From NCBI GenBank assembly GCA_020630095.1, contig JAHDCD010000004.1, positions 13,580 to 77,579 on the forward strand: a stretch of 64,000 nt of DNA, read 5' to 3'. Below the pieces are notes generated by a model that searched no databases, was not told the DNA's origin, and was given only the letters and a program-made list of their open reading frames with translations. The DNA comes from Rickettsiales bacterium (GTDB taxonomy: Bacteria; Pseudomonadota; Alphaproteobacteria; Rickettsiales; UBA8987). The position numbers and the translations under genes are program-made. Shown here one piece after another: positions 6,830 through 46,001 of the stretch. Positions within the stretch are counted from its first letter, which is position 1, and every line of letters begins with the position of its first letter.

Positions 6830-7987
6830 ATGATTTACTTAGATTACAATGCAACCTGCCCTATATTGCCTGAAGTTAAACAGACTATGTTAAGTGCTAT
6901 GGATAGACCTTATAATGCATCTTCTGTGCATGCCTTGGGGCGCGAGGCGAAGAATATTATATCCAAAGCTAAAGATAATATTCGCGGTAAGCTTGGTAGT
7001 GAATCTGCTGAGATAATATTTACTGGAACATCTACTGAAGCATCTAACTTAGCGTTAAAAGGATTAGATAAAGTTAAAACCATTATAACTACCGAAGTTG
7101 AGCATAGCGCAGTACTTAATACTGTAAAATCATTTTATCATTGCGAGAAACAAAGTGACGAAGCAATCCAGAAATCTACCCAAGCGAATAAATCACTGGA
7201 TCGCTTCGCTAATGCTCGCGATGACAGGATATATATAATTCAAGTTGATTCAAATGGTATAACTAAACTAGATGAATTAGATAAAGCCTTGAGTAAGGCG
7301 GAAAGCCCTGCTTTGGTTAGCGTGCAATTAGCTAATAGTGAAACTGGAGTAATTCAGCCTATTAAAGAAGTAGTTAAAATTGCGCTTAAATATGGCGCGT
7401 ACATCCATTCTGATGCTACTGCGGCACTAGGTAAGGTTAATATAAACTTTGATGAGTTAGGCGTGGATATGATATCCGTAGCAGCGCATAAAATTGGTGG
7501 CCCACAAGGTGTTGGCGCACTTATCCATAAGAAGGGATTACATTTTAATGCGTTAATTCAAGGTGGCGGACAACAAGGTGGCTATAGAAGTGGCACAGAA
7601 AATATAGCTGGAATTGTTGGCTTTGCTAAAGCATGCGAGCTTATTGAAACTAAAGCATATAACAATATTTCTATATTGCGTGATGAGTTACAGTACACAT
7701 TAGAAACTAAGGGCTGGCAGGTATTTGGTAAAGAGTCTGAGCGCCTATGCAACACCTTGCTTGTTTCTGATGGTAAAACGCCCGCAGAAACCCAGCTTAT
7801 TAAAGCAGACTTAGCGGGCATTTGTATATCTGCAGGTTCGGCATGCTCAAGCGGTAAAGTTACTGAAAGTTATGTATTAAAGGCAATGGGAATAGATAAA
7901 ATAATAGCCGAAGGTGCTATTCGCCTTTCCTTAGGGGTTAATACTACAAAAAATGAAATTAAAACCTTTTTAACCAAGTTAACTTAA
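6830..7987 (+). CDS. cysteine desulfurase (NifS/IscS-type class V aminotransferase) carrying an in-frame palindromic-element insertion
   Basis: Contains the PLP-lysine context SVAAHKIGGPQGVGAL, the catalytic Cys loop SAGSACSSG and the N-terminus MIYLDYNATCP. Confidence 0.85.
   Translation: MIYLDYNATCPILPEVKQTMLSAMDRPYNASSVHALGREAKNIISKAKDNIRGKLGSESAEIIFTGTSTEASNLALKGLDKVKTIITTEVEHSAVLNTVKSFYHCEKQSDEAIQKSTQANKSLDRFANARDDRIYIIQVDSNGITKLDELDKALSKAESPALVSVQLANSETGVIQPIKEVVKIALKYGAYIHSDATAALGKVNINFDELGVDMISVAAHKIGGPQGVGALIHKKGLHFNALIQGGGQQGGYRSGTENIAGIVGFAKACELIETKAYNNISILRDELQYTLETKGWQVFGKESERLCNTLLVSDGKTPAETQLIKADLAGICISAGSACSSGKVTESYVLKAMGIDKIIAEGAIRLSLGVNTTKNEIKTFLTKLT
7139..7225. repeat. RPE-like palindromic element inserted in-frame in the cysteine desulfurase gene
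   Basis: CATTGCGAG..ACGAAGCAATCCAG...CTGGATCGCTTCG..CTCGCGATG has two nested inverted repeats with one mismatch each. It is translated as HCEKQSDEAIQKSTQANKSLDRFANARDDR. Confidence 0.75.
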
Positions 7988-8010
7988 TATTAACCTATCT
8001 GTTGTAATAT
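7979..8010 (+). promoter_or_regulatory. CtrA-type box TTAAC-N6-TTAAC + N10 + TAATAT, 7 nt before the ATG at 8018
   Basis: Reads gTTAACttaataTTAACctatctgttgTAATATttgaattATG. Confidence 0.55.
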
Positions 8011-8017
8011 TTGAATT

Positions 8018-8572
8018 ATGGCAAAGGATACTACAGATAAAAAAGGGTTCTTTATACGTTTATTTACAGCAATTGGGCTAGCTTCTGTGTTACCTTTTAT
8101 TGGAAAAAAAGATGAGGCGGGAATTGATGGCATTTTACAGCCTGATGGTAGCATTACTCATCCAAAAAGTGGAGAAGTAATTAGATTAAATAACTATCTA
8201 GAAAATTATTTTGGAGTTGAACCTGAAAGTAAAAAAGAAACACCCATTACTGAGGATCAGCCAGCATTACCTTTGGAAATGAAAGAAATCATTGAAGCTC
8301 GCCCTAGAGGACGAGGTGATATTGTACCAATCCACCCTAAACAAAAAACTGAACCTGACGCTGCACCTAGTTATTGGGATGAAAAAAATTGGAAAAAACC
8401 TGATGAAAATCCTGCTCCTGAAGAATTATCTCCACCACAAGAAGATGAGCAAAAGGAAGAAAGAAGAAGGCCCAGAGGAAGGGAACCACATGCGCTTGAA
8501 GCAGAATTTCAGATGGCTGAAGCTCCTCAAAGTGAAGCTAGCGCACAAGTAACTGAAAATGAGCTAAGTTAA
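8018..8572 (+). CDS. hypothetical protein with N-terminal TM helix and a Pro/Glu-rich acidic tail (184 aa)
   Basis: ORF with the conserved promoter architecture. The hydrophobic segment is FFIRLFTAIGLASVLPFIG. No known motif. Confidence 0.55.
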   Translation: MAKDTTDKKGFFIRLFTAIGLASVLPFIGKKDEAGIDGILQPDGSITHPKSGEVIRLNNYLENYFGVEPESKKETPITEDQPALPLEMKEIIEARPRGRGDIVPIHPKQKTEPDAAPSYWDEKNWKKPDENPAPEELSPPQEDEQKEERRRPRGREPHALEAEFQMAEAPQSEASAQVTENELS

Positions 8573-8577
8573 TTATG

Positions 8578-8609
8578 TTAACTTTAAATTAACCTTTTGA
8601 AGATAAAAT
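8578..8609 (+). promoter_or_regulatory. CtrA-type box TTAAC-N6-TTAAC + N10 + TAAAAT, 6 nt before the ATG at 8616
   Basis: Reads gTTAACtttaaaTTAACcttttgaagaTAAAATttaactATG. Confidence 0.55.
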
Positions 8610-8615
8610 TTAACT

Positions 8616-9197
8616 ATGAATAGTCTATTTAAATTTACCCTTGGTATTTCATCTTTAATCTTTTCCAGCTCATTAACCCCTTTAAGCGCGCAGGAAATAT
8701 TTAAAGATCCAAATGCCCCTATAGAGAGAAAAGAACGATTTTTTACTGAACTAGTACCTAAAAGATTAAGTGCAGAAAGCTCCCAAAAAGAAGGGGATCA
8801 AAGATGGGGAGAGCTTTTTGGTAAATTAGAGTGGGATAACGCTGAAGGAAAAAGAATACCAGCTGATGACGATAGCATAATTCCTCCATTAATGCCAGAA
8901 GAGCTACCTACTATGTCAGAAATATTACAACATGACCCCTCCTTAAAAAATGGCTTTGAGGGCTTAGGAGAAAGCGTTGAAGTTGACTTAAGCAGACCTG
9001 AATCGAATTATGAACCGGATGATTCTGTTAAAAAATCAAACTCTAACAAACCTAATGTTATAAGAGTATTTTCAAAAGAAGATTTTAAAGAAATATTAAA
9101 TAGCCCTAGCGCACCTTCGCAAAAGCATAAACCTCATAAACCAATTACAGTTGGGAGCGCTGATGTGCAATCAAAAGGTTCGGAACTTGGTGGTTAA
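8616..9197 (+). CDS. hypothetical secreted protein (signal-peptide-like N-terminus, 193 aa)
   Basis: MNSLFKFTLGISSLIFSSSLTPLSAQE looks like a Sec signal peptide. The gene has the conserved promoter architecture. Confidence 0.55.
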   Translation: MNSLFKFTLGISSLIFSSSLTPLSAQEIFKDPNAPIERKERFFTELVPKRLSAESSQKEGDQRWGELFGKLEWDNAEGKRIPADDDSIIPPLMPEELPTMSEILQHDPSLKNGFEGLGESVEVDLSRPESNYEPDDSVKKSNSNKPNVIRVFSKEDFKEILNSPSAPSQKHKPHKPITVGSADVQSKGSELGG

Positions 9198-10180: not shown

Positions 10181-10241
10181 ATTTATTTATATAGTAATAC
10201 GGCAATGTATTACAAGCTATTCGCAGTAATTTTAATAAAAA

Positions 10242-10273
10242 TTAACTAAAGTTTAAGAACTGAATAATATAAT
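10242..10273 (+). promoter_or_regulatory. CtrA-type box TTAAC-N6-TTAAG + N10 + TATAAT, 6 nt before ATT at 10280
   Basis: Reads aTTAACtaaagtTTAAGaactgaataaTATAATtttataATT. The layout is the same as the two downstream paralogue promoters. Confidence 0.5.
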
Positions 10274-10279
10274 TTTATA

Positions 10280-10963
10280 ATTACTGATAATAATAAAAAT
10301 ATACTCGGGCATAATATACCACCAAGTAAAAACGATAAAGAGGCAAGAGAGCTTTGGCGCTTTGGGGTTTCTTATCTTATAAAATCTATTTTACCTGAGA
10401 AAAAGCCCACACAGGCGGTTATAGCAGAAGACCTCGGGATTCCTTTATCAAAATATAGGCACTTACTTAGAGGGTATGGCGATACACCACAATTATTAGA
10501 TAAATTATTAGATAACTTTAATGTACCAGACAATGAGAGGCTTGAATTTTACAATAACTGTAATGAACTGGGTATTGTTACCAGTCAAAGCCTCTATAAA
10601 CAAGGTGCCTCAAGCTTAGGAGATTGCTTAAAGAAGATTAGACTGAAAGCCGGTTTGACTCAAGAAGAGCTTAGCGATGCATTGGATGTCGAAAGAGTTT
10701 TTCATAGCCATGTTGAAAGTGGTTATGAAGTTTATGACGCAACAACAACTGGCAAGCTTTTAGATTTTTGTAACGCAAGTGAGCTAGATAGGACCTTTAC
10801 TGAACAGCTTAGATCTGGAGATGTTGGATTTCAAAGAAACTCAGGAAAAAAACACCTTCCTAGTGATGCACAAATTAAAGCCGTAGAAATAGGCGCTGCA
10901 ATTGTTGAATCAATAGAGTATTTAGCCAATGAGTTAGATGCCCTACCCTCTAAAGAAAGGTAG
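10280..10963 (+). CDS. short multi-HTH protein, third member of the tandem family; no canonical start codon (ATT at the conserved start position), possibly a pseudogene
   Basis: The frame is open from 10268. The first ATG/GTG/TTG in frame is the TTG at 10655 (track ORF 10655-10963). The upstream part encodes HTH-like KPTQAVIAEDLGIPLSKYRHLLRG and LKKIRLKAGLTQEELSDAL. Confidence 0.45.
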   Translation: MTDNNKNILGHNIPPSKNDKEARELWRFGVSYLIKSILPEKKPTQAVIAEDLGIPLSKYRHLLRGYGDTPQLLDKLLDNFNVPDNERLEFYNNCNELGIVTSQSLYKQGASSLGDCLKKIRLKAGLTQEELSDALDVERVFHSHVESGYEVYDATTTGKLLDFCNASELDRTFTEQLRSGDVGFQRNSGKKHLPSDAQIKAVEIGAAIVESIEYLANELDALPSKER

Positions 10964-11030: not shown

Positions 11031-13208
11031 ATGGGACAAGATACAACATACGGCGGCCTATCCTTTGAAGAATATACCAATGGTTATGGAAGGGATAGCG
11101 GTCGAAAAATAGGGGCTGCTGGATTACCATTTGAATTTTCTGTATCTGGCTTTTTAAATCACTGGCTAGATTTAGAAGAAACCTCTGCAAGTGAGTTTTA
11201 TGCAATTCATAAACTGTCTGACTTTGAGGTGGATTATTCAGATTTTGAAAAATTAATATCTCCACCATCAAGAGAGAATGGCAGTTATTCGCTAGGTGAT
11301 AATTTACATATATATCTACAATCTGCATTACCTAAAAGTATGAAAGAGCATTCTTGGGCTTTAAGATATTCATCTCAGAAAGAAATTGATGCGATAGGAG
11401 CAGAGATTGTAGAGGCAGATATTAGCATTTTTGAACAAATTACAAAGGCTGATCCAAGAACTATATTAGCCCCTTATATAAAGCCAGCTGAAAGAGTTAA
11501 TGCACAGAATTACCCTTCTGAATTTTTAACAAAATTATTAAAAACCTTAAGAAAAGCTAATGATTTACAGGGCTCTTTGGGAGGAAGCTTTCCATTTGAA
11601 GAGATTGAATTCTTCAGAAAGGTAGATGATTTCTATCAGTTTCTTACTAAAGGCACAATCCCTGAAAAAAAAATGCTAAGTCTACTTGAATCAACGTATG
11701 ATTTAACAGACTCAGATATCAACTTTATTTCAGATGCTCTTACGGAGGCTGAGACTCAAGGCTATCCGAAAGATTTCTTTTCAAAAGAAATCGACAAAAT
11801 TATAGATCAGGTAAAAAATCAAGAGCAAGGCGAGGTTTTACAACTTAGCGATTATGAATTAATGAATAAATTTGCTAGAATAGTTGATGCTCCTATAGAA
11901 TGTTTATACGGGCTAAGGCCCTTAACATACTCTGATAAAACAAGGCAAATTAGTGCTATATGCGAAAAAATATCATCTTTTGCAGGTGAAGAGTTAGCGA
12001 ACTTAGCTGAAGAGCATTTTCAAAGTATTGAAGGCATTGATATTGAAAGACTCATTGAAATTAAAGAGGAATCTGGAGTTACAGGTAGAAAGCTACTTGG
12101 TTATGCGCTTAGTTTAATTCGGTTGTCTGAAGGGATGACTCAGGCTGAACTTGGCGATAAGGCTGACTTAAGGCCGCAGAAAGTTTCCTCTATGGAAATA
12201 CATACTAGAACCAGTATAAAAAATAGCTCAACTAGAGCGCAAAAACCCTCTCAGATAGAAGCATATCTTGACGGGTGTAATACTGATAAAAAGTTTAGAG
12301 GCATAATAGAAAGAATATGTAAAAAATATGATATTGATACAGTTAAAAACTTAACTGATAGAATTTATAAAACAGATAATGTGAATGAAGCCGTATATTT
12401 ACTTACAAAATTATATGAAACTTCACTGACAGCTATTGATAGGAAAGCCCGTAAACTAGACCCTGATTGTATTACATATGTTAAAATAAAAAACAAAAAA
12501 ACTCAATTAAAGCCTAAAGAAGTTAGACTTACATTAGGTATATTAGAAGTTAAAGCTGAACATAGGCAGCATTTTGAGGGGCTTATAAACCTTACTAATT
12601 TACTTGAGGCAGAAACTGAACTTGGCAGCGCTTTGAGAATAGTTAGAGAAAGTTACGACTTAACTACCACTGATATTAAAAATCGCCTAGGTGTTACTAG
12701 ACAGGCGGTCAATAATGCTGAAATAAAAGGCTGTAAGGCATCTACTGCAATGAATTATCTAAACGCTTGTGGGGCTACTAGAGATGTACGCTATATGGTT
12801 GCCGTTACAAGTGAGCATGCCGAATTTATACCAGAATTACTATATGAGGTAGTTAACAGGGTCTCAATTGACATAATGGATACTGATAATAACTTATCTG
12901 CTAGAGCTATAGTGGCTGATAATATGGGTATAAGCGTAAAAGAATTTAATAGCATACTATCCTACGAAACAAAACCCAATAAAACTGAAATTAGGGAGTT
13001 GTGCAAGTTAACTAGAGATAATTTAGCCAATTACCTTACCGATAAAGATTCAACCTATTTAGAAAATTCAATTGATAAAACTCGTACAAATAAAATAACA
13101 AAATCTGGAGCGTATAAGGAGCGCACCATTAGGCACCCTTCTGTAAATACTAAAGCGGATCATTGGCGGACTCTTAGCGGTCCTACTAAAATGTCTAAAA
13201 TTACTTAA
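11031..13208 (+). CDS. large multi-HTH (XRE-like repeat) protein, paralogue A (725 aa)
   Basis: At least three HTH-like modules: GRKLLGYALSLIRLSEGMTQAELG, LRIVRESYDLTTTDIKNRLGVTRQAVNNAE and ARAIVADNMGISVKEFNSIL. It shares blocks with 13252-15450. Confidence 0.7.
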   Translation: MGQDTTYGGLSFEEYTNGYGRDSGRKIGAAGLPFEFSVSGFLNHWLDLEETSASEFYAIHKLSDFEVDYSDFEKLISPPSRENGSYSLGDNLHIYLQSALPKSMKEHSWALRYSSQKEIDAIGAEIVEADISIFEQITKADPRTILAPYIKPAERVNAQNYPSEFLTKLLKTLRKANDLQGSLGGSFPFEEIEFFRKVDDFYQFLTKGTIPEKKMLSLLESTYDLTDSDINFISDALTEAETQGYPKDFFSKEIDKIIDQVKNQEQGEVLQLSDYELMNKFARIVDAPIECLYGLRPLTYSDKTRQISAICEKISSFAGEELANLAEEHFQSIEGIDIERLIEIKEESGVTGRKLLGYALSLIRLSEGMTQAELGDKADLRPQKVSSMEIHTRTSIKNSSTRAQKPSQIEAYLDGCNTDKKFRGIIERICKKYDIDTVKNLTDRIYKTDNVNEAVYLLTKLYETSLTAIDRKARKLDPDCITYVKIKNKKTQLKPKEVRLTLGILEVKAEHRQHFEGLINLTNLLEAETELGSALRIVRESYDLTTTDIKNRLGVTRQAVNNAEIKGCKASTAMNYLNACGATRDVRYMVAVTSEHAEFIPELLYEVVNRVSIDIMDTDNNLSARAIVADNMGISVKEFNSILSYETKPNKTEIRELCKLTRDNLANYLTDKDSTYLENSIDKTRTNKITKSGAYKERTIRHPSVNTKADHWRTLSGPTKMSKIT

Positions 13209-13251: not shown

Positions 13252-15450
13252 ATGGGACACGGGCCTAAATATGGAGGATTATCATTTGATGATTATACCA
13301 ATGGTTATGGAAGGGATAGCGGTCGAAAAATAGGGGCTGCTGGATTACCATTTGAATTTTCTGTATCTGGCTTTTTAAAATATTGGCTTGAACAAGAAGA
13401 AATATCCGTAAAAGATTTCTATACGGGGCATAAATTATCTAACTTTGGGGTTGATTATCAAAGTTTTAAAAGTTTAGTTTATCCCCCCTCAGCAGATAAA
13501 GGTGAATTTGCACTAGGCGAAAAGTTGCGAGTATATATACAGTCTATTTTACCTAAAAAGATGGCAAATTACGTTTGGGTTTTAAGACACTCTGCTTATA
13601 ATGAAAATAGCTCAGGTATGGCACAGGTGGTTGAGGCTAAAATAGAAATATTAGACTCCATTGTAAAAAAAGATCCTAAAGATTTAAAAGCTCCAAACTT
13701 AAAATCTGCAAAAAGAATCTCTACTAAAAATTACCCATCAGAGTTTTTATCAAAATTATTGGAAGCCTTAAGAAAGGCTAATCATATGCAAGGCTCAATA
13801 GGTGATATTTTTCCATTTGAGGAAGTTGAGTTTTATAGAAAAATAGATGATTTATATCAATTCTTAACTCAAGGGTCAATATCAGCCGATCAAATGCTAG
13901 ATTTTCTTGAAGCTGACCATACACTTTTAGATTCTGATATATTATTTATATCTAAAGCTTTAGTTGAAGCTGAAAAGCAAGGCTATCCAACAGATTTCTT
14001 TAGCAAGTCTATCGATGTGGTAATAGAGCGTGAAAAGAGTAAAGAGTGCGGTGGTACAGCTAAGCAGTATAGTGATTATGAATTAATGAGTAAATTTGCA
14101 AAGCTAGTAAACTGCCCATTAGAAAGCCTTTATGGGTTAAAGCCCCTTACTCAAGTTAGAATCACTGAACAAATTAACCATATTTGTGAAAGAATAGCAA
14201 CTTTTGCCGACCCCAAATTAGCCGTTTTGGCAAAATCACATTTTGAATCAATAGAAGGTATTGATATTCCTCGCTTAGTTGAAATTAAAGAGGAATCTGG
14301 AGTTACAGGTAGAAAGCTTCTTGGCTATGCGTTGAGCTTGATAAGATTATCAGAGGGGGTGAGTCAAACGGATGTTAGTGCAAAGATGGGAGTAAGTCAA
14401 AGAGCTGTTAGTGCCATGGAGTACTTTGAAAGCTTTAGGGTTAGTGGTGTTCATAGAAAAAATCAAAAACCGTCAGAAATAGAAAATTACTTAGATGCGT
14501 GTGATGCTGATAAAAGTGCTAGGAAAACCATTGATAGAATTTGCAAAAAATATGACATCGATACAGTACAAAAGCTAGAAGGCAATTTTAATGCCTCTAA
14601 AACAACTTTAGAAGCCATTGTTAATTTAATAAAATTACATGAAGTTCCTTTTAAAGTTCTGGGAAGGGAAATTAAACAAAAAGGATTAAAGTGTGAGGCT
14701 TCAGTTGAATTTTTAAAAAAAAAATCTCAACCACTGACTGAGTCTGATACAAAGATAATAATGGACACTCTTGGTGCAACTGCAGAAGAAAGAGAAATAG
14801 TCGAGGGTGTAATTCAAGAAAATAGCATGACAGCCTTACTTCAAAATGCAACTCATAGCGGTGAGGCACTAAAGATAGTGCGAGAAGGACTTGATTTAAC
14901 CGGTGAACAACTTGCTAAATTATGTGGCATTTCTAGGCGAACTATACAAAACCAAGAAGCTACTCCAGAAGTTAGCTCTATAAATATAATTAAGAGACTT
15001 AATGTATGCGAAGTTTCTCCAGAAGTTAGATATTATGTAGCCTTAGCAAGCTCTAGAGTTGAGTTACTACCTGAAATACTTTATGAGGTAGTTAACAGGG
15101 TCTCAATTGACATAATGGATACTGATAATAACTTATCTGCTAGAGCTATAGTGGCTGATAATATGGGTATAAGCGTAAAAGAATTTAATAGCATACTATC
15201 CTACGAAACAAAACCCAATAAAACTGAAATTAGGGAGTTGTGCAATCTTGTAAAAGAGTCTTTATCTGCTCATTTAACTGAAAGAGAAGTTGTATTTATA
15301 GATTCTTCTTTAGACGCTCTATACATAGATACTTTAAAGAAAGATGGCACGAGAAGAGAAAGAAAGATATCCATTCCCTCACCAGCTGCTAAAGCGGATC
15401 ATTGGGAAAACTTATCATGCCCTGTAAATATTAATTATTTGGGTGAATAA
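13252..15450 (+). CDS. large multi-HTH (XRE-like repeat) protein, paralogue B (732 aa)
   Basis: Collinear with paralogue A and carrying nucleotide-identical blocks. HTH-like modules include LIRLSEGVSQTDVSAKMGVSQRAVSAME and LKIVREGLDLTGEQLAKLCGISRRTIQNQE. Confidence 0.7.
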   Translation: MGHGPKYGGLSFDDYTNGYGRDSGRKIGAAGLPFEFSVSGFLKYWLEQEEISVKDFYTGHKLSNFGVDYQSFKSLVYPPSADKGEFALGEKLRVYIQSILPKKMANYVWVLRHSAYNENSSGMAQVVEAKIEILDSIVKKDPKDLKAPNLKSAKRISTKNYPSEFLSKLLEALRKANHMQGSIGDIFPFEEVEFYRKIDDLYQFLTQGSISADQMLDFLEADHTLLDSDILFISKALVEAEKQGYPTDFFSKSIDVVIEREKSKECGGTAKQYSDYELMSKFAKLVNCPLESLYGLKPLTQVRITEQINHICERIATFADPKLAVLAKSHFESIEGIDIPRLVEIKEESGVTGRKLLGYALSLIRLSEGVSQTDVSAKMGVSQRAVSAMEYFESFRVSGVHRKNQKPSEIENYLDACDADKSARKTIDRICKKYDIDTVQKLEGNFNASKTTLEAIVNLIKLHEVPFKVLGREIKQKGLKCEASVEFLKKKSQPLTESDTKIIMDTLGATAEEREIVEGVIQENSMTALLQNATHSGEALKIVREGLDLTGEQLAKLCGISRRTIQNQEATPEVSSINIIKRLNVCEVSPEVRYYVALASSRVELLPEILYEVVNRVSIDIMDTDNNLSARAIVADNMGISVKEFNSILSYETKPNKTEIRELCNLVKESLSAHLTEREVVFIDSSLDALYIDTLKKDGTRRERKISIPSPAAKADHWENLSCPVNINYLGE

Positions 15451-23364: not shown

Positions 23365-23964
23365 ATGCTAGGTAAGCGTTTAATAAAAGTGGCTATGATT
23401 GCCATGTTGTCAATTTCTTTGAGTTCGTGTTATTTAATCACGACCTCTAAACCCTCAAACATAGATCATATATGTACGATATTTAAGGAGCGTCCGCATT
23501 GGCAACGCGCAGTATTTAAGGCATCTAATCGCTGGAATGTGCCTGTGCCGATGATAATGTCTATCATTTATCAAGAAAGTTCGTTTAGGCGCTACGCACA
23601 GCCTACTCAATATTTATTGCTTGGTAGTATTCCTATGCTTGGCTCGTCTGGCGCGCTAGGCTTTTCTCAGGCGATTGGTATAACGTGGAAGGAATATGTT
23701 TCTGAAACTTCAAATGACTTTGCAATGCGTACATCTTTTGATGATTCAGTAGATTTCATTGGGTGGTACGTTGATAAATCTGCTAGGCTAATAGATATTG
23801 CACGTACTGATGCGTTTGGTCATTACCTTGCTTACCACGAAGGACGTACAGGCTATAAGCGTAAAACTTATAATTCAAAGTCTAAGAAATGGCTGTTAGG
23901 CGCAGCTAAAAAAGTGCGCAACAGAACTGCAAACTATAAAAAACAATTATTGGATTGTTATTAA
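23365..23964 (+). CDS. lipoprotein with SLT/transglycosylase-like motif
   Basis: The signal peptide has a lipobox (LSLSSC). SIIYQESSFRRYA resembles the SLT catalytic ES motif. Confidence 0.5.
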   Translation: MLGKRLIKVAMIAMLSISLSSCYLITTSKPSNIDHICTIFKERPHWQRAVFKASNRWNVPVPMIMSIIYQESSFRRYAQPTQYLLLGSIPMLGSSGALGFSQAIGITWKEYVSETSNDFAMRTSFDDSVDFIGWYVDKSARLIDIARTDAFGHYLAYHEGRTGYKRKTYNSKSKKWLLGAAKKVRNRTANYKKQLLDCY

Positions 23965-23992
23965 CTTTCTATTAACCTTATTAGACTAGAAT
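23961..23992 (+). promoter_or_regulatory. CtrA-type box TTAAC-N6-TTAAC + N10 + TAGAAT, 9 nt before the ATG at 24002
   Basis: Reads TTAACtttctaTTAACcttattagacTAGAATcataaatatATG. Confidence 0.55.
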
Positions 23993-24001: not shown

Positions 24002-24973
24002 ATGATCTTAGATAATAAATTGTTACATAAGTTATCATCATCGCTTCAAATTTTAACATCTATCTTTGGTTTTAAAGATTACCCTAACTTTAAACATTTA
24101 TTAGATTTTTCTAGAGAGCCTATTAATAATACAAGATCATTAGTAGCATTTATGAGGGTTTTATCCAGTGAGCTTGATGATAAAATAGATACACAGCCAC
24201 CTGAGGTAATATCTAATTTAGGTACGGCTAAATTAGGGTGTTATGAAGAGTGTGAGTTTCTAGAGTCTTTATTAGATGAAGACTCTAGAGTTAAATTGTA
24301 CGGATTATCAAAAAACGATATATTATCTAAAGAGGCTATAAGAGGATTCTCAAATTTATTGTCTGCTCTTGTTGTAGAGCAATCCGACTTGCAATTAATT
24401 GAATCTCCTACCCCTTCGGATAGAAAGGCTTTAATTTCAATCCATCATGATATATCTATTGCCTGCCTAGCTTTCACCCTGCAAATAGTTAATCCAGTTA
24501 AAATAACCGAAGAGACAAAGCTTGACATGGGTTTTATTAAAGAAAACTACAGAAACGTAGCTCTTCTTGGTAAGAATATGCAGGTTATCGATGATTTACA
24601 TGATTTTATAATTGATCTGTATGAAGAGTCTACTACAGGAGTTACAAAGCAAAACTCTGCCTTAGTAAATGCATACCTAAAATGCGGAGAGGATGAGGAT
24701 CAAATGTCTCAATTAAAAGAAAAAATTAATGCTACCGCAGAAACCTTTAAAAGAGAAGGTCATATAGATTTCAATAAGCTGCCAAGTAAATTACAGGATG
24801 CCTATAATAGTACATTGGGTAATTTAAGAGAAGATATCAATAAGATGCCAGTAGCATATAGACTTATTATCTCACCTATTTTAAAGGATCTTGAGAGAGG
24901 CCTTTTAGCAAACAATAAGAACTCATCATTTATTAATGGAGTAGCGGTTTCGGTTGCAAACTCTATAACTTAA
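24002..24973 (+). CDS. hypothetical protein (323 aa) with two DDxxD motifs about 138 residues apart (isoprenoid-synthase-like?)
   Basis: LSSELDDKID spans residues 59-63, and GKNMQVIDDLHDF (residues 197-201) resembles the G..FQ..DD..D second Asp-rich motif of trans-prenyl synthases. Confidence 0.5.
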   Translation: MILDNKLLHKLSSSLQILTSIFGFKDYPNFKHLLDFSREPINNTRSLVAFMRVLSSELDDKIDTQPPEVISNLGTAKLGCYEECEFLESLLDEDSRVKLYGLSKNDILSKEAIRGFSNLLSALVVEQSDLQLIESPTPSDRKALISIHHDISIACLAFTLQIVNPVKITEETKLDMGFIKENYRNVALLGKNMQVIDDLHDFIIDLYEESTTGVTKQNSALVNAYLKCGEDEDQMSQLKEKINATAETFKREGHIDFNKLPSKLQDAYNSTLGNLREDINKMPVAYRLIISPILKDLERGLLANNKNSSFINGVAVSVANSIT

Positions 24974-25317
24974 GCTGATTCAGCAGGAGGGTTAGCAGTA
25001 ATACCTTTTTGTTTTAGGAACGCTGGCCACTCGCCATTTTCGTACATTTCGTACATTATGTCACCACCGCCAATGAACTCACCTTTAATGTAAAGCTGAG
25101 GAATAGTAGGCCAGTCAGAAAACTCTTTAACACCTGCCCAAATTTCTTGGTCGTCGAATACATTTACAGATTCAAAATCTACACCAACATTTTGTAAAAT
25201 ACCTGAAGCACGTGCAGAGAATCCGCATGAAGGCATATGTTTTGAGCCTTTCATGAATAAAACTACATCGTTTGAATCTATTAATCCTTTAATCTTTTCT
25301 CTTATTTCTCTTTCCAT
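24970..25317 (-). CDS. grxD: monothiol glutaredoxin (Grx4 family)
   Basis: Contains VVLFMKGSKHMPSCGFS and WPTIPQLYIKGEFIGGGDI. Confidence 0.92.
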   Translation of the reverse strand: MEREIREKIKGLIDSNDVVLFMKGSKHMPSCGFSARASGILQNVGVDFESVNVFDDQEIWAGVKEFSDWPTIPQLYIKGEFIGGGDIMYEMYENGEWPAFLKQKGITANPPAESA

Positions 25318-25410
25318 AATATAATAATAAGGTTGGGGTTTGAGTTGGAGTTTGAGATAAGTTTATTCTGAAATAAAAATACCCAAACACTAACTCAAAC
25401 ACTAACGAGC

Positions 25411-25938
25411 TTAATCTTTATTTCTAAAACTATCTAATGAAATTACATTATTCTTATAACCACCTTCAGGAACTTCTTCGCCCTCAGGGTTTGCTGTATT
25501 GCCATCTAGCATATGCTCTAATTCTTCTATAGCTTGCTCAAGCGCTTCAACATCTGCATCCGTTTGTGCATCTGAAGTTAGATTATCAATATTACTAAAC
25601 TGAATACCAAACTTCATTGAAGGGTCTACAAATGAAGTAAGTGAATTAAATGGCACAGTTAAATGGTGCTTTACTCCGTTAAATGAAAGTGCTATAGAAA
25701 ATTTCTGCTCATCAACGCGCAAGTCCCAATATTGATGTTGCATAACGATGGTCATCTCATGCGGGTATTTTTCCATTAAAACTTCGCCGATATCCACCCC
25801 TGCATGGCGAGTGTTAAATGTAATGAAAAAATGATGCGCACCTTGTAGCCCATCTTTCTCAATTTGCTTTAGTGTCTTCTTGACTACGCCTTGCATTGCT
25901 TCATCTATAAGCGCACTGTAATTGATATATTCTGTCAT
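25411..25938 (-). CDS. sspB: ClpXP adaptor SspB (alphaproteobacterial type)
   Basis: HHFFITFNTRHAGV...YPHEMTIVMQHQYWDLRVDEQKFSIALSFNG...VPFNSLTSFVDPSMKFGIQF matches the SspB-alpha pattern from memory. The C-terminal tail is acidic. Confidence 0.8.
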   Translation of the reverse strand: MTEYINYSALIDEAMQGVVKKTLKQIEKDGLQGAHHFFITFNTRHAGVDIGEVLMEKYPHEMTIVMQHQYWDLRVDEQKFSIALSFNGVKHHLTVPFNSLTSFVDPSMKFGIQFSNIDNLTSDAQTDADVEALEQAIEELEHMLDGNTANPEGEEVPEGGYKNNVISLDSFRNKD

Positions 25939-25996
25939 CTGTTACTAATTTAGTATGCCATGATTATGATTACAAGGGGAAATGGCGTTTAATTTG

Positions 25997-26028
25997 TTAA
26001 CTTTATATTAACACCAAGCTTATATTAT
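25997..26028 (+). promoter_or_regulatory. CtrA-type box TTAAC-N6-TTAAC + N10 + TATTAT, 7 nt before the ATG at 26036
   Basis: Reads gTTAACtttataTTAACaccaagcttaTATTATatagctaATG. Confidence 0.55.
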
Positions 26029-26035
26029 ATAGCTA

Positions 26036-26392
26036 ATGGCTAATATTAAAAATAACTATCCCAGCTTTTATAACTTGGTTGAAGCTATTTTATTTAGTTC
26101 TTATCAAGAAGGCGATGAAGAACTTCAAGGATCTGGTGAGGTTGTACAGTTTATTGAAAACTACTGGAGTCTTAATCATGTATATTATCATGAGCCGTTA
26201 AAGAATATTAGAGAATCATGGGAAAAACCATTTAATAGTGATTCTATACCTATTGAAATAAATGTTGAAAGCTGGCTAAAACTAGTTGCATTCCCAACTT
26301 TGTTTTTAAATGGTGAATTAAGTGAATTTGATGATCCTGATAATGATATTAACATCTCGATAGCACTGCTAGAAGCTAGCAGTTTTTTTTAA
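26036..26392 (+). CDS. hypothetical protein, upstream part of a gene split at a T8A7 tract
   Basis: The 118-codon ORF ends in ...agtTTTTTTTTAAAAAAAgtt. The -1 frame stays open to 27105. Confidence 0.5.
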   Translation: MANIKNNYPSFYNLVEAILFSSYQEGDEELQGSGEVVQFIENYWSLNHVYYHEPLKNIRESWEKPFNSDSIPIEINVESWLKLVAFPTLFLNGELSEFDDPDNDINISIALLEASSFF

Positions 26393-27105
26393 AAAAAGTT
26401 TTTGAAACTGGGGCTACAAATGAGGCCATTTCTGAGATATTACAATCTAACTTCTCAGAGTTAGTAGAAAATATCCCTGATAGAGCGCTTACTATAGCTT
26501 ATGATAGAGAGGATAGACGAAGCGTTTCTAGGCGAATCAAATTTGGACTATCCCATGGAAACTCAGATGACTCAATTGTAGATGGGCATAATACCGTAGA
26601 GAAAATGGACTATGAGCGACATACAGAAATCACTGAGTTTATATATGAACGATACCCTAATGTTTCTAAGGATATAGATGCTATAGTTGAAAGCCTTCTT
26701 GATTATCCGGGGTATATTGGGAAAGACTTCTCAAGTCATGGACCTGAAGAATTATTAGAGGAAGCCTTAATGCTACATTTTGCAACAGATGGCGATCAAA
26801 CTAAGCTACCTTTTTTATTTAATCATTCACAGATAACACATACTAAACCAAAATTAGAAAGTTTAGATCTTGCTTTATATGACTTATTTGAAAACTTTAT
26901 GGCGATTACAAAGACCGATGTAATTGCAATTATTTCTCAAATAAGCCTATTAGGAATTGAACAAGACTTTGGTGATATACCAAGTATTCCTATAGATATT
27001 GATTCTATTGATTTTTCAAAAGAAAGTGAACCTAAGCCAGTTGTTCAAGATATAACAAAATACGATGCTATCGCTGAATATCTTGGTAAACAGCAAGGCG
27101 GGTAA
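26380..27105 (+). CDS. hypothetical protein, downstream part (open from 26380; first ATG at 26605)
   Basis: The frame is open for 75 codons upstream of the annotated ATG with no start codon. It would fuse to 26036-26392 by a -1 shift in the homopolymer tract. Confidence 0.45.
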   Translation, partial: QFFLKKVFETGATNEAISEILQSNFSELVENIPDRALTIAYDREDRRSVSRRIKFGLSHGNSDDSIVDGHNTVEKMDYERHTEITEFIYERYPNVSKDIDAIVESLLDYPGYIGKDFSSHGPEELLEEALMLHFATDGDQTKLPFLFNHSQITHTKPKLESLDLALYDLFENFMAITKTDVIAIISQISLLGIEQDFGDIPSIPIDIDSIDFSKESEPKPVVQDITKYDAIAEYLGKQQGG

Positions 27106-28585: not shown

Positions 28586-28619
28586 TTTCAAGGGTAAAAG
28601 GGTAAAAGAAATGATAGGG

Positions 28620-28939
28620 TTAGCTGTTTAATTTAGCTATCATAGAGTTTAGCATTTTTTCTACTTCTAAAGCTAATTCTGTAATTTTTGTTATTTGTTG
28701 TTCTTTTATAATTTCAATTTCTAAACATATATCTAATTGAGTATTAAGTTCAAATAAAGAGCCACGAGCTATAACTAAAAATTTTAAGAAATCCTTTTTA
28801 CCACTTCTTCCTTTTCCTTCAGCTATATTTGAGGGGATAAAGTTTCATTTTTAGGGAAGGACTTAGTTAACCTATAAATCTCGCCTGCTAGCTTTATGGA
28901 TTTCTGCCAGACTATAAGGTCTTTATAATAAATATTCAC
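28620..28939 (-). pseudogene. four-helix-bundle protein (23S rRNA intervening-sequence protein family), frameshifted/internally deleted, flanked by GGGTAAAAG inverted repeats
   Basis: My minus-strand translation gives (GTG)NIYYKDLIVWQKSIKLAGEIYRLTKSFPKNETLSPQI* followed, in another frame, by IAEGKGRRSGKKDFLKFLVIARGSLFELNTQLDICLEIEII...KLNS*. GGGTAAAAG lies at 28592-28608 (x2), and its complement lies at 28939-28947 and 28964-28972. Confidence 0.7.
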
Positions 28940-28983
28940 TTTTACCCTTTTCTACCTTTTGGGCTTTTACCCTATTAAATTTG

Positions 28984-30010: not shown

Positions 30011-31522
30011 TTGGGATCTCATGAAAATTCTATATTTGAGAAAATGGACTTTAATTTACTTTTAAAAGGCTTGGTAAAAAAGGATTTTCCTACGTTTATG
30101 AGGAAGTGCTTTTCTACCGTTAACCCAGGGATTAGGTATCAGCATAATTGGCATTTAGATTTAATTGCCGAATATTTAGATGCCATAGATAAGGGGCAGA
30201 TTAAGCGCCTGATAATTAATATTCCACCACGTTATTTGAAATCATTCACTTGCAATGTGACCTACCCTGCTTGGGTGCTAGCGAATAATCCTACAAAGCG
30301 AGTTATATCTGTTTCGTATAGCCAAGCTCTTAGCTTAAAACATTCTATTGATTCGCGCGCGCTAGTTGAAAGTAAATGGTTTAAGCAATGTTTTAAAGAT
30401 TGTGCGCTGTTGGCGGATCAGAATGAAAAACATAAGTTTATGACCGAACAGCGCGGCTTCCGCTTTGCGACATCTGTTGGTGGCACGCTTACCGGCGAAG
30501 GTGGAGATTTAATTATTATAGATGACCCGCAGAACCCGATTAACATCCATAATCATGCGTATCGTGAGCATAGTATGGAATGGTTTTCCACTGTGCTTTC
30601 CAGCCGTTTAGATGATAAGAAAAACGGCGCAATGTTACTTGTTATGCAACGTTTGCATGAGGAGGATTTAACAGGAAAACTACTTAAACGCGGTGGCTGG
30701 GAGCATTTATCTATCTCCGCTCTGAATGAAAATGAAATTACTTATTATAGTTTTAAACAAATAAAAGCAAAAGAGTCGAATAAAGAATCTGTTATAGCTA
30801 TAACAGATTTTATTGATAATAATCTATTTAATTCAATAAGATCTGAATATTTAAGAAAGCCTAATTCTCCTTTACATTTTACACGTGAAGGATTTGATGA
30901 GTTGGATCAAATAAAGGCCGATTTGGGTGATCATGCATTTGCCGCGCAATATTTACAAAATCCTGCCCCCGCTAAAGATGGTATGGTTAGGCGCGATTGG
31001 CTATGTTATATATCTGAACCCTCTGAAGCGCCTGAGCAGATAATTTATTCATGGGATACGGCAATTAAAACTGCATCGCATAATGATTATACAGTTTGCA
31101 CGCGCTGGAAGACTTATAAGAATTTCTATTTCTTGGATAATTTATATCGCGGTAAATTGGAATACCCTGAACTGCTTAATTTAATTGATGAATTTAGTGC
31201 AGATGCTGATGTGGTATTGCTAGAGGATAAAGCCTCTGGGCAGTCTTTAATTCAAGACTTACGGAAGAATAGTAATCATCCTGTAATTGCCATTACCCCA
31301 CATAAAGATAAATTAACGCGCTTTGCGGCAACAACTCCGCTATTTGAGGCGAGTAAAGTAAAGATTAATCAGGATAGAGATTGGCGCATAGATTTAGAGC
31401 GTGAATTGCTAACATTTCCGAACTCAAAACACGATGACCAAGTAGATTCAATTAGCCAGTTTTTAAACTATATGAAAAATAGAAAGATAGAAATTTCTAA
31501 GCCCAACTTACGGAGGTTTTAA
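30011..31522 (+). CDS. phage terminase large subunit-like protein (orphan)
   Basis: Contains a Walker A-like IINIPPRYLKS, a Walker B DLIIIDDPQNP, and C-terminal RNaseH-like nuclease Asp motifs (YSWDTA, KHDDQVDS). The start may be the TTG at 30011 or the ATG at 30044. Confidence 0.8.
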   Translation: MGSHENSIFEKMDFNLLLKGLVKKDFPTFMRKCFSTVNPGIRYQHNWHLDLIAEYLDAIDKGQIKRLIINIPPRYLKSFTCNVTYPAWVLANNPTKRVISVSYSQALSLKHSIDSRALVESKWFKQCFKDCALLADQNEKHKFMTEQRGFRFATSVGGTLTGEGGDLIIIDDPQNPINIHNHAYREHSMEWFSTVLSSRLDDKKNGAMLLVMQRLHEEDLTGKLLKRGGWEHLSISALNENEITYYSFKQIKAKESNKESVIAITDFIDNNLFNSIRSEYLRKPNSPLHFTREGFDELDQIKADLGDHAFAAQYLQNPAPAKDGMVRRDWLCYISEPSEAPEQIIYSWDTAIKTASHNDYTVCTRWKTYKNFYFLDNLYRGKLEYPELLNLIDEFSADADVVLLEDKASGQSLIQDLRKNSNHPVIAITPHKDKLTRFAATTPLFEASKVKINQDRDWRIDLERELLTFPNSKHDDQVDSISQFLNYMKNRKIEISKPNLRRF

Positions 31523-44778: not shown

Positions 44779-44970
44779 CTTTTTTACTTGCAAGTGCAAC
44801 CTAGTGTTGCTATAGTGCAACACTTATCAACTTTGTGCATTTAATAAAATGTGTTTAGTTATGCTTTTTTTAGATTAAATTGAAAAAAATTATAAAAGGC
44901 ACTTCCGAACTTATTTTTAATGTGTTTAAGCTGATATATTAACAGGTTAAGTTACTTAAGGAGGTGACGT

Positions 44971-45610: not shown

Positions 45611-45758
45611 TTACCCCTTATAAGGACTAAGGTTAAAAAAAGAAAACAAAGCCAATTTATGATAGGAGTATTAAAAATATTCATATTATTTTTCATGATA
45701 ATGATATCCCCTTTGGCTTTACTAATTTGCTTAATATTTAACACGATATTTAACAAAA

Positions 45759-46001
45759 ATGAGTACACCAAGCCTTGAAGAATTGCAGCAAGAGTCAGCT
45801 ACACTTGGTAAAAAATTAAAGGTTTACTTAAACCAGTACGAGAAACTTACACCTAAGCAAAGGTCGAAATTATTTAGAGTAGGATTATCCAGTTTATTAA
45901 TAGGAAGAGAAATTTATGATAAATCTATTACAGATCTAGAAACAAGAACTGCTAATCGCTACCCTCTTGATTGTCGTATAAAGCTTGTTGAAGAAGAGTG
46001 A
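45759..46001 (+). CDS. hypothetical small protein divergent from the repressor
   Basis: ORF only. Its position suits a Cro/antirepressor-like gene. It overlaps the 3' end of 45952-46176 on the other strand. Confidence 0.35.
   Translation: MSTPSLEELQQESATLGKKLKVYLNQYEKLTPKQRSKLFRVGLSSLLIGREIYDKSITDLETRTANRYPLDCRIKLVEEE

What the first reader, a model, noticed from the sequence alone, without database searches (positions are those of the whole stretch)
26383..26397. A T8A7 homopolymer junction splits a CtrA-box orphan gene; a -1 shift fuses 118 and 242 codons
ORF 26036-26392 terminates in ...AGT TTT TTT TAA AAA AAG. The -1 frame (TTA AAA AAA GTT TTT GAA ...) is open from 26380 to 27105. It has no start codon for its first 75 codons, because the annotated ATG is at 26605. 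The two ORFs therefore look like one ~356-codon gene interrupted at a slippery run. Four explanations are possible:
- Slipped-strand phase variation (ON/OFF switching by T or A tract length).
- Programmed -1 ribosomal frameshifting on T TTT TTT A.
- A recent pseudogenising indel.
- A homopolymer sequencing error.
Basis: seen in the sequence. Interest (0 to 1): 0.58.

Follow-up and report, generated by a model that had tools for sequence, protein, structure and literature searches.

The report
Frame-broken orphan gene at terminator-like T-run
A single lineage-specific gene of about 356 codons is knocked out of frame by one missing base in a run of eight Ts that lies directly after a perfect RNA hairpin, so the site looks like a signal at which RNA polymerase stops or stutters, but no related sequences or reads were available to show whether this is used or is simply damage.

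Summary
T8 (26383-26390) and A7 (26391-26397) lie exactly where frame a (ORF 26036-26392) closes and frame b (open 26380-27105) opens. The two open frames overlap by only 10 nt, and that overlap is essentially the T run.

The 71 start-less codons (26392-26604) score like real genes on a codon model. This is therefore one gene of about 356 codons that needs one extra T (T9), or two fewer bases, to be in frame.

It is a true ORFan. Searches of 5.8 billion and 1.84 billion proteins, GTDB genomes and JGI metagenomes returned only its own two pieces, so strain comparison was impossible.

It is built from rare codons and abuts the T8. This is the only canonical terminator-like motif in the 64 kb, and it works on the sense strand only (about 1e-3 by chance at this run).

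My best reading (confidence about 0.38) is an RNA-polymerase-level event. Hairpin plus U8 causes termination or stuttering, and transcripts with one extra U encode the full protein.

The rivals are a plain recent pseudogene, a homopolymer sequencing error, phase variation and -1 ribosomal frameshifting. The last has no stimulator and is the least supported. Interest is moderate.

The parts
25997..26012 (+). CtrA-type box TTAACTTTATATTAAC (palindromic GTTAA-N7-TTAAC), 39 nt before the ATG; probable promoter element
   Evidence: 8 matches to TTAA-N7-TTAAC in the window against 2.5 expected; the same box, TTAACTTTnnATTAAC, lies 38-41 nt upstream of four ORFan genes.
26021..26026 (+). -10-like hexamer TATATT, ending 9 nt before the ATG (a short or absent leader is inferred)
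   Evidence: TTAACT-18-TATATT, 9 of 12 matches. (TA..AT is invariant in the four aligned upstream regions). (no Shine-Dalgarno sequence before 26036).
26036..27105 (+). The whole gene as reconstructed: about 356 codons, in two frames joined inside 26380-26389
26036..26392 (+). Frame-a part (118 codons plus TAA); the annotated 118-aa protein (P0002)
   Evidence: (coding score 0.417).
26365..26383 (+). Perfect 8-bp hairpin ACTGCTAG-aag-CTAGCAGT (4 G-C pairs, -9.4 kcal/mol) encoding A-L-L-E-A-S-S with rare codons; its 3' edge is the first T of the run
   Evidence: structure. (chance). (CTG is 5% of Leu codons, CTA 16%; AGC and AGT are 14% each of Ser codons).
26377..26379 (+). Last stop (TAG) of frame b, inside the 3' arm of the hairpin; it sets the upstream limit of the shift window
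26383..26390 (+). T8 run: the U-tract of the terminator-like motif and the proposed slippage site. T9 would put the gene in frame (AGT TTT TTT TTA AAA AAA GTT = S F F L K K V)
   Evidence: plus direct reading of the frames.
26390..26392 (+). TAA stop of frame a, formed by the T8/A7 junction itself; it sets the downstream limit of the shift window
26391..26397 (+). A7 run. Together with T8 it forms a perfect 7+7 DNA palindrome. Adding an A here would not remove the TAA
   Evidence: plus direct reading.
26380..26604 (+). Start-less coding stretch of frame b (75 codons with no ATG, GTG or TTG)
26605..27105 (+). The annotated 166-aa ORF (P0001), which is the C-terminal part of frame b
   Evidence: (coding score 0.555).

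Best explanation
SHOWN. Positions 26036-27105 are one lineage-specific gene of about 356 codons. Its reading frame changes within a 10-nt window (26380-26389) that is essentially the T8 run. One extra T would make it continuous. The run is immediately preceded, on the sense strand only, by a perfect 8-bp hairpin. Hairpin plus T8 therefore has the anatomy of a canonical intrinsic terminator.

INFERRED. The genomic sequence really is T8, and the site acts on RNA polymerase.
1. When the polymerase has transcribed the U8, the nascent hairpin closes up to the first U.
2. This leaves a short, all rU:dA hybrid. That is the state that normally leads to termination by hybrid shearing.
3. Complexes that do not release can re-pair the RNA one position back at no energetic cost and add a ninth U.
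4. Faithful read-through transcripts give the 118-aa product.
5. Transcripts released at the terminator would end at or before the TAA and so be non-stop mRNAs.
6. Transcripts with one extra U give the full 356-aa protein ...EASSFFLKKVFETG...

Whether this arrangement is selected as a two-product or regulated gene, or is a recent T9-to-T8 lesion partly rescued by the same slippage, cannot be decided here.
For: - Frame geometry: frame b carries 28 stops up to 26377 and none after; frame a closes at 26390.
- The start-less 71 codons score 0.409 per codon. Real genes score 0.427 +/- 0.114. Stop-free random frames score 0.057 +/- 0.10 with a maximum of 0.328. P(open by chance) = 0.0058.
- The downstream 242 codons show no decay: the scores are 0.409 and 0.555.
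- The hairpin ACTGCTAG-aag-CTAGCAGT plus T8 was found by the terminator scan. It is the best such motif on either strand of the 64 kb, and it is the minimum-free-energy fold of the nascent RNA.
- Chance of a perfect stem of at least 8 bp with at least 4 G-C pairs abutting a T run: 4.5e-5 per run and 0.007 per window in 300 dinucleotide shuffles. From the real density of such hairpins in the window it is about 5e-4 to 1.6e-3.
- The hairpin is built from minor codons, which suggests selection on the nucleotide sequence.
- The motif works only on the sense strand, because no T run follows the hairpin on the other strand (reading).
- All 16 other homopolymers of at least 7 nt (G/C at least 6) that lie in ORFs, including A9, A10 and A8, are in frame. 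This argues against a sloppy assembly.
- Literature: runs of 9 A/T slip efficiently, and runs of 8 can be productive. Examples are IS elements, about 10% rescue in apoB, and mxiE, where slippage on a run of Us fuses two ORFs (PMC1088944; PMC5009743). A stem-loop 5'-adjacent to the slip motif stimulates polymerase slippage in Roseiflexus IS630 with terminator-like requirements (PMC5009743).
- The gene has a conserved promoter box shared with three other ORFans, so it is probably expressed.
Against: - There is no direct evidence of mRNA heterogeneity and no orthologue to show that the run, the hairpin or the two-frame layout is conserved.
- T8 is one shorter than the length at which slippage is usually efficient.
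- The only documented hairpin-stimulated case gives a 1-nt deletion on a heteropolymeric motif, whereas this gene needs a 1-nt insertion.
- By folding energy alone the region is not exceptional: z = -1.32, and 22 of 200 shuffles fold at least as well.
- I noticed the hairpin after looking, so its p-value carries a look-elsewhere cost.
- A terminator-like signal in mid-gene could also simply be tolerated, because coupled ribosomes would mask it.
Confidence: 0.38

Rival explanations
1. Plain recent pseudogene. A replication slip shortened T9 to T8, or a quasi-palindrome template switch removed a base in the CAGT end of the hairpin. The ORFan is now truncated at 118 aa. The hairpin is incidental or had some other role, and any rescue by slippage is negligible.
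For: - Homopolymers are the commonest sites of frameshift mutation (my own knowledge).
- The gene is an ORFan with no detectable relatives, a class often under weak constraint.
- The permitted window for the indel (26380-26389) includes the last four bases of the hairpin arm, so a palindrome-perfecting event is geometrically possible.
- It is the only frame break found among roughly 60 genes in the window, which fits a sporadic lesion.
Against: - The downstream 242 codons carry no stop and score as well as or better than average genes, so the lesion would have to be very recent.
- It leaves the hairpin plus T-run coincidence, about 1e-3, unexplained.
- It also leaves the rare-codon make-up of the hairpin unexplained.
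Confidence: 0.2
2. Homopolymer sequencing or assembly error. The real genome has T9 and an intact 356-codon gene.
For: - The source is a draft assembly; the two pieces lie on a 158,780-bp NCBI contig.
- A single undercalled T gives exactly this picture.
- The downstream frame is perfectly preserved.
- An adjacent hairpin can worsen base calling (my own knowledge).
Against: - All 16 other homopolymers of at least 7 nt (G/C at least 6) inside ORFs, including the longer A9, A10 and A8, are in frame.
- Every conserved gene checked is full length.
- An independent Logan assembly (SRR14415274) is 100% identical over 961 bp next to the site, but it stops at 26106 and does not cover the tract.
Confidence: 0.17
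3. Slipped-strand phase variation. The T tract, which is part of a T7/A7 palindrome, changes length at replication, switching the full-length protein ON (T9) or OFF (T8) within the population.
For: - The tract lies one third of the way into the ORF, and a single-step change restores the frame (reading).
- The intact downstream frame is what reversible switching predicts.
- Hairpin-forming and palindromic DNA favours slippage (plus my own knowledge).
Against: - A/T tracts of 8-9 nt are only mildly mutable (my own knowledge).
- The window shows no excess of long tracts. There are four runs of at least 8 nt, and an i.i.d. estimate from base composition (my own arithmetic) gives about ten.
- The protein has no feature of the usual contingency genes (surface, restriction-modification or glycosyltransferase); it has no family hit at all.
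- The two longer tracts in the Xre paralogues are in frame.
Confidence: 0.1
4. Programmed -1 ribosomal frameshifting on U UUU UUU, helped by the slow-to-decode UAA that follows.
For: - The heptamer T TTT TTT is in the correct phase in frame a.
- A -1 shift gives the same ...SFFLKK... product.
- The frame-a stop directly follows the heptamer.
Against: - There is no significant downstream structure (z = -1.0).
- There is no Shine-Dalgarno-like sequence in the 20 nt upstream (reading).
- Heptamers without a stimulator give only about 2-10 times a background of 0.055% in E. coli (PMC4066793).
- The sole strong structure is 5' of the site. There it would be melted inside the ribosome, and 5' hairpins are reported to attenuate -1 shifts (my own knowledge).
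Confidence: 0.05
5. Two independent genes. The 118-aa gene ends with an ordinary intrinsic terminator, and the 166-aa gene starts at ATG 26605.
For: - Hairpin plus T8 has full terminator anatomy at the end of ORF1.
- This is how the record is annotated.
- Many genes here lack a Shine-Dalgarno sequence, so ATG 26605 cannot be excluded as a start.
Against: - The 71 start-less codons between the two ORFs are open (P = 0.0058) and score as coding.
- No convincing internal promoter was found; the only candidate is a weak 9-of-12 match at 26477-26505.
- No other gene end in the window uses such a terminator.
- Release 7-9 nt after the stem would cut the RNA at or before the TAA, leaving non-stop mRNAs (inference from terminator geometry).
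Confidence: 0.04

Closest known systems
Shigella flexneri mxiE (transcriptional slippage on a run of Ts that fuses mxiEa and mxiEb)
   Same: Both have two overlapping ORFs that meet at a T run. Both need one extra U in the mRNA to make the longer protein. In both, the short product is the default (PMC1088944; PMC5009743).
   Different: From my own knowledge, the mxiE run is nine Ts and I recall no adjacent hairpin. Here the run is T8 with a perfect 5'-adjacent hairpin. mxiE is conserved and tested experimentally, whereas this gene has no known relatives.
Roseiflexus IS630-family transposase (nascent-RNA stem-loop-stimulated transcriptional slippage; Penno et al. 2015, as described in PMC5009743)
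   Same: An inverted repeat lies directly 5' of the slippage motif (GCGGGCgcaaGCCCGC before U5C5 there, ACUGCUAGaagCUAGCAGU before U8 here). The requirements resemble those of intrinsic terminators.
   Different: The Roseiflexus motif is heteropolymeric (T5C5) and yields only a 1-nt deletion. Here the run is homopolymeric and an insertion of one U, or loss of two, is needed. There is no transposase or IS context here.
Thermus thermophilus dnaX and endosymbiont poly(A) 'rescue' (Buchnera, Blochmannia)
   Same: Polymerase stuttering on A/T runs gives a mixed mRNA population. In the endosymbiont cases this restores the frame of genes that carry genomic frameshifts (PMC5009743).
   Different: Those runs are 9-10 nt or longer and need no hairpin. 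In dnaX the slipped product is the shorter one.
Canonical intrinsic (Rho-independent) terminator
   Same: It has a G-C-containing stem of 8 bp, a short loop and an uninterrupted U8 directly after the stem, and it works on the sense strand only.
   Different: It lies inside a coding unit. The stop codon sits at the far end of the U-tract, not before the hairpin, and coding sequence continues in another frame.
Homopolymer contingency loci (phase-variable genes of host-adapted bacteria)
   Same: A homopolymer inside the ORF where one repeat-unit change switches the frame.
   Different: No tract polymorphism could be observed. The gene belongs to no typical class, and the tract is short for an A/T contingency locus.

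Membership tests
Programmed transcriptional slippage gene (mxiE / Thermus dnaX type) | Homopolymeric A or T run of about 9 nt (8 in some organisms) at the frame junction | tested here: met
   T8 at 26383-26390. This is borderline in length; runs of 8 are reported as productive in some IS elements (PMC1088944).
Programmed transcriptional slippage gene (mxiE / Thermus dnaX type) | Two ORFs that overlap only at the run and are fused by a change of 1 nt in the mRNA | tested here: met
   The overlap is 26380-26389, and one extra T gives a continuous 356-codon frame.
Programmed transcriptional slippage gene (mxiE / Thermus dnaX type) | The run and the two-frame layout are conserved in orthologues | tested here: inconclusive
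   No orthologue exists in any collection searched.
Programmed transcriptional slippage gene (mxiE / Thermus dnaX type) | An mRNA population heterogeneous in run length, and the trans-frame protein detected | not testable with these tools
   This needs deep sequencing of cDNA against gDNA, and mass spectrometry.
Stem-loop-stimulated transcriptional slippage (Roseiflexus IS630 type) | A stable nascent-RNA stem-loop immediately 5' of the slippage motif | tested here: met
   An 8-bp perfect stem, -9.4 kcal/mol, whose last base is the first T of the run.
Stem-loop-stimulated transcriptional slippage (Roseiflexus IS630 type) | A heteropolymeric T5C5 motif that yields a specific 1-nt deletion | tested here: not met
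   The motif here is homopolymeric T8. A 1-nt deletion would lead to TGA at 26403, and fusion needs +1 or -2 nt (PMC5009743).
Stem-loop-stimulated transcriptional slippage (Roseiflexus IS630 type) | The gene is an IS transposase | tested here: not met
   No Pfam, NCBIfam or PHROG hit, and no repeat copy of the hairpin elsewhere in the window.
Intrinsic terminator | A G-C-containing hairpin followed directly by a U-tract on the transcribed strand | tested here: met
Intrinsic terminator | It lies after the stop codon, at the end of a transcription unit | tested here: not met
   The TAA is formed by the last T of the tract, and coding sequence continues in frame b.
Programmed -1 ribosomal frameshift site | An X XXY YYZ heptamer in phase with the upstream frame | tested here: met
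   T TTT TTT at 26383-26389 in frame a.
Programmed -1 ribosomal frameshift site | A stimulator: a structure 5-9 nt downstream, or a Shine-Dalgarno-like sequence upstream | tested here: not met
   The downstream fold has z = -1.0. There is no GGAG or GAGG in 26360-26382.
Phase-variable contingency locus | Tract length is polymorphic among reads, isolates or strains | not testable with these tools
   No second copy of the tract could be retrieved. The one independent contig ends at 26106.
CtrA-regulated promoter | A TTAA-N7-TTAAC box in the promoter region | tested here: met
   The box is at 25997-12. There are 8 matches in the window against 2.5 expected. It lies at a fixed distance from four ORFan start codons.
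CtrA-regulated promoter | A CtrA regulator is present and binds the box | not tested
   I did not look for ctrA in the window. Binding needs an experiment.

The most novel reading that the evidence does not exclude
A cellular, non-mobile gene uses a terminator-type hairpin fused to a U8 run as a built-in decision point. RNA polymerase either releases (giving non-stop RNA and no stable product), reads through faithfully (giving the 118-aa protein), or shears back one register and adds a ninth U (giving the 356-aa protein). Because the tract switches from U to A, the ratio of outcomes could depend on the UTP/ATP balance. This would be the first insertion-type, hairpin-assisted transcriptional recoding site on a homopolymer outside IS elements. 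It would be part of a small CtrA-box regulon of lineage-specific genes.
Probability: 0.18. Interest if true: 0.7.

Novelty: new member of a known kind. Interest (0 to 1): 0.42.

Why it matters
If the hairpin-U8 site is used, it would link two processes that are usually treated separately: intrinsic termination by hybrid shearing, and productive transcriptional slippage. It would link them in an ordinary chromosomal gene. It would also extend the single documented class of hairpin-stimulated slippage, which is a heteropolymeric motif, a deletion and an IS element, to a homopolymeric motif and an insertion.

It also shows a practical point for annotation. The record splits one gene into a 118-aa and a 166-aa hypothetical protein and leaves 71 clearly coding codons unannotated.

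If the site is only a lesion or an error, the finding is routine.

Tried and rejected
Searches for relatives or tract variants that found nothing:
- The fused 356-aa protein against 5.8 billion proteins gave no hit.
- The same query against GTDB species genomes gave 74 pattern matches, none of them real.
- The same query against JGI metagenomes gave none.
- A full HMMER scan of 1.84 billion representatives returned only the gene's own two pieces.
- A DNA pattern allowing a variable tract length found 0 matches in metagenomes.
- Exact-protein look-ups of the 118-aa, 166-aa and MetRS products found nothing on record.

Synteny:
- The closest MetRS (57% identity, a Rickettsiales MAG) has tatD, not this gene, next to it.
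- None of the 81 fetched loci has a relative of the gene, or SspB next to MetRS.

Function by sequence or fold:
- Pfam, NCBIfam, PHROGs and PDB sequence searches gave nothing significant.
- The single-sequence AlphaFold2 model had pLDDT 35.5 and is unusable, so no fold search was run.

Other ideas considered and rejected:
- Paralogy with the other CtrA-box ORFans, or internal repeats: none.
- The hairpin being a dispersed repeat: no other copy exists.
- A non-canonical start for the downstream frame: only ATT or ATA codons occur, and by my reading the GAGG nearest ATT 26428 sits too close (2 nt) to act as a Shine-Dalgarno sequence.
- Other split genes in the window: the overlapping ORF pairs checked are separate or intact genes.
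- A literature search for the SRA run identifier returned 0 papers.
- Penno et al. 2015 is not held in the library, so it is cited through the review PMC5009743.
Full report
**1. The observation**

The sequence reads ...GCA CTG CTA GAA GCT AGC AGT TTT TTT TAA AAA AAG TTT... T8 occupies 26383-26390 and A7 occupies 26391-26397.

- ORF 26036-26392 (118 aa) ends at the TAA formed by the last T and the first two As.
- The frame one base behind it carries 28 stop codons between 25951 and 26377. The last is TAG at 26377-26379. It then carries none until 27103. It is open for 242 codons from 26380.
- The first ATG, GTG or TTG in that frame is at 26605.

The two open frames therefore overlap only at 26380-26389 (CAGTTTTTTT).

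**2. One gene, not two**

I trained a codon model on 23 long ORFs of the window.

| Segment | Score per codon in its own frame |
|---|---|
| Upstream part, 26036-26389 | 0.417 |
| Start-less stretch, 26392-26604 | 0.409 |
| Annotated downstream ORF, 26605-27102 | 0.555 |
| 71-codon windows of real genes | 0.427 +/- 0.114 (none at or below 0) |
| Random Markov-1 frames that happen to lack stops | 0.057 +/- 0.10 (maximum 0.328 of 400) |

All the other frames of the three segments score strongly negative. Only 0.58% of random frames are open for 71 codons.

The 212 bases that the public annotation leaves empty are therefore coding. The unit is a gene of about 356 codons.

Reading the frames directly gives these outcomes:
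- T9 restores continuity: AGT TTT TTT TTA AAA AAA GTT = S F F L K K V.
- Loss of two bases also restores continuity.
- An extra A does not help, because the TAA remains.
- Loss of one base runs into TGA at 26403.

**3. No relatives**

- The fused protein has no hit among 5.8 billion proteins, in GTDB species genomes or in JGI metagenomes.
- A full HMMER pass over 1.84 billion representatives returned only the two annotated pieces themselves, P0001 (166 aa) and P0002 (118 aa). Each forms a single-member cluster, from one NCBI contig of 158,780 bp.
- The closest MetRS in GTDB is only 57% identical (an uncultured Rickettsiales MAG), and its neighbourhood is not syntenic. The lineage itself is therefore poorly sampled.
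- One independent Logan contig (SRR14415274) is 100% identical to window 25146-26106, but it ends 277 bases before the tract.
- A DNA pattern with a variable tract length found nothing in metagenomes.

**4.

The terminator scan flagged 26365-26383, ACTGCTAG-aag-CTAGCAGT, followed by TTTTTTTT.

- It is a perfect 8-bp stem with four G-C pairs, at -9.4 kcal/mol. It is the minimum-free-energy fold of the nascent RNA.
- Its last base is the first T of the run.
- In my own scans of both strands of the whole window it is by far the best hairpin-plus-T-run motif. No gene end in the 64 kb has a comparable one.
- On the opposite strand no T run follows the hairpin, so the motif is specific to the gene's sense strand.

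How likely is this by chance?
- In 300 dinucleotide-preserving shuffles, a perfect stem of at least 8 bp with at least 4 G-C pairs abutting a T>=6 run occurred 0.0067 times per window, or 4.5e-5 per run.
- Using the real density of perfect 8-bp hairpins in the window (20 in total, 6 of them with at least 4 G-C pairs), the chance that a given T run has one within the five allowed positions is about 5e-4 to 1.6e-3.

The stem is written with minor codons: CTG is 5% and CTA 16% of Leu codons, and AGC and AGT are 14% each of Ser codons. This is what selection on the nucleotide sequence would produce.

Caveats:
- By folding energy alone the 53-nt region is unremarkable (z = -1.32).
- I found the hairpin after looking.

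**5. Mechanism**

The geometry is that of an intrinsic terminator: the stem edge at the first U, and eight uninterrupted Us that fill the RNA-DNA hybrid.

From established knowledge of termination, a closed hairpin strips the upstream end of the hybrid. On a perfect U-tract the RNA is sheared backwards. A complex that does not release can resume after re-pairing one register back, which adds one U.

Here that is isoenergetic. Once G26382 and U26383 are taken into the stem, the remaining hybrid is all rU:dA. A ninth U is exactly what fuses the two frames.

The literature supports the components:
- Slippage is efficient on runs of 9 A/T.
- It can be productive on runs of 8, as in Deinococcus and Nostoc IS elements and in the roughly 10% rescue of apoB.
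- It fuses two ORFs in Shigella mxiE (PMC1088944; PMC5009743).
- A stem-loop directly 5' of the motif drives slippage in a Roseiflexus IS630 element, with terminator-like requirements. Insertions there are prevented only by the heteropolymeric motif (PMC5009743).

The steps above are inferred, not shown.

One further inference concerns an ordinary gene-end terminator. Release 7-9 nt after the stem would end the RNA at 26389-26392, at or before the TAA. That would make non-stop mRNAs, which argues against the hairpin being a normal gene-end terminator for a stand-alone 118-aa gene.

**6. Rivals**

*(a) Plain recent pseudogene.* This is compatible with ORFan status and with being the only frame break among roughly 60 genes. 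However, the lesion must be very recent, because there is no decay in 242 codons. It also leaves the hairpin unexplained. A quasi-palindrome template-switch event could give both a perfected stem and a frameshift, because the permitted indel window includes the CAGT end of the stem. It would still need a pre-existing near-perfect palindrome.

*(b) Sequencing error.* This is possible in a draft. However, all 16 other runs of at least 7 nt (G/C at least 6) inside ORFs, including A9 (11665), A10 (14715) and A8 (43893), are in frame. All conserved genes inspected are full length.

*(c) Phase variation.* This cannot be tested. The window has no excess of long tracts, and the protein has no feature of the typical contingency-gene classes.

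*(d) -1 ribosomal frameshifting.* The heptamer T TTT TTT is in phase. Against it:
- There is no downstream structure.
- There is no upstream Shine-Dalgarno-like element.
- Unstimulated heptamers give well under 1% in E. coli (PMC4066793).
- The only structure lies on the wrong side of the site.

*(e) Two separate genes with a terminator between them.* This is contradicted by the coding, start-less 71 codons and by the absence of a convincing internal promoter.

**7. Context**

The gene sits among core genes:
- Upstream lie gyrB, lipA, dsbD, mraY, trpD, an SLT transglycosylase, a monothiol glutaredoxin and sspB.
- Downstream lie a convergent metG, greA and RcGTA-like genes.

Its promoter region carries TTAACTTTATATTAAC, a full CtrA-type box. 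The same box, TTAACTTTnnATTAAC, lies 38-41 nt before the ATG of three other ORFans (8018, 8616 and 24002). In each case a TAnnAT follows about 8 nt before the ATG, and there is no Shine-Dalgarno sequence.

This suggests a small co-regulated set of lineage-specific genes, probably with little or no leader. It argues that the split gene is, or recently was, expressed.

**8. Verdict**

The most informative feature is the terminator-type hairpin fused to the T run. It shifts the likeliest level of action from the ribosome to RNA polymerase.

Without reads, strains or orthologues, I cannot separate a programmed site from a fresh lesion or an error. My confidences are:

| Explanation | Confidence |
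|---|---|
| Polymerase-level mechanism on a genuine T8 | 0.38 |
| Silent pseudogene | 0.20 |
| Sequencing error | 0.17 |
| Phase variation | 0.10 |
| -1 ribosomal frameshifting | 0.05 |
| Two separate genes | 0.04 |

Interest is moderate (0.42). It is a good, cheap-to-test candidate rather than a demonstrated recoding event.

Noticed in passing
window 7979-7994, 8578-8593, 23961-23976, 25997-26012: The box TTAACTTTnnATTAAC (CtrA-type, TTAA-N7-TTAAC) lies 38-41 nt upstream of the ATG of four genes with no family hit: 8018-8572, 8616-9197, 24002-24973 and 26036-. A conserved TAnnAT follows, and there is no Shine-Dalgarno sequence. This looks like a shared, nearly leaderless promoter for lineage-specific genes. 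The 8616 product, and perhaps the 8018 product, has a hydrophobic N-terminus that looks like a signal peptide.
   Followed up: partly
window 11031-13208 and 13252-15450: These are tandem paralogues (725 and 732 aa, 53% amino-acid identity, Xre-type HTH) with identical 25-nt upstream sequences. They carry in-frame A9 (11665-11673) and T5A10 (14710-14724) tracts, which are longer than the T8 studied and therefore themselves prone to slippage.
   Followed up: partly
window 30011-31522 and 47403-53819: RcGTA-like gene transfer agent genes lie in two separate blocks. One holds the large terminase. The other holds DUF2460, a baseplate hub protein, NlpC/P60, the GTA_TIM tail protein (1245 aa) and DUF2793. 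All appear intact.
   Followed up: no
window 5675-5694, 5715-5735, 6658-6678, 44803-44824: These are G-C-rich perfect palindromes (for example ATTCCCGCgcagGCGGGAAT and CCCTCTCCccagaGGAGAGGG), none followed by a T run. The first two lie at the very start of the holB ORF as listed from TTG 5670, so the true start may be further downstream. They could be repeat elements or terminators that lack a T tract.
   Followed up: no
whole window: No canonical hairpin-plus-T-run terminator lies at any gene end in the 64 kb. The only good one is the intragenic motif at 26365-26390.
   Followed up: yes
L001 (Logan contig SRR14415274_322855), equal to window 25146-26106: An independent assembly of a public sequencing run holds a 961-bp contig that is 100% identical to the window. 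The same organism is therefore present in that run, and its reads could settle the tract length.
   Followed up: partly
window 10181-10654, 28592-28983, 45611-46172: These are the largest stretches without an ORF of at least 90 aa (474, 392 and 562 bp). I did not examine them for small genes, RNAs or gene remnants. Rfam at gathering thresholds finds only tRNA-Lys, at 36498.
   Followed up: no
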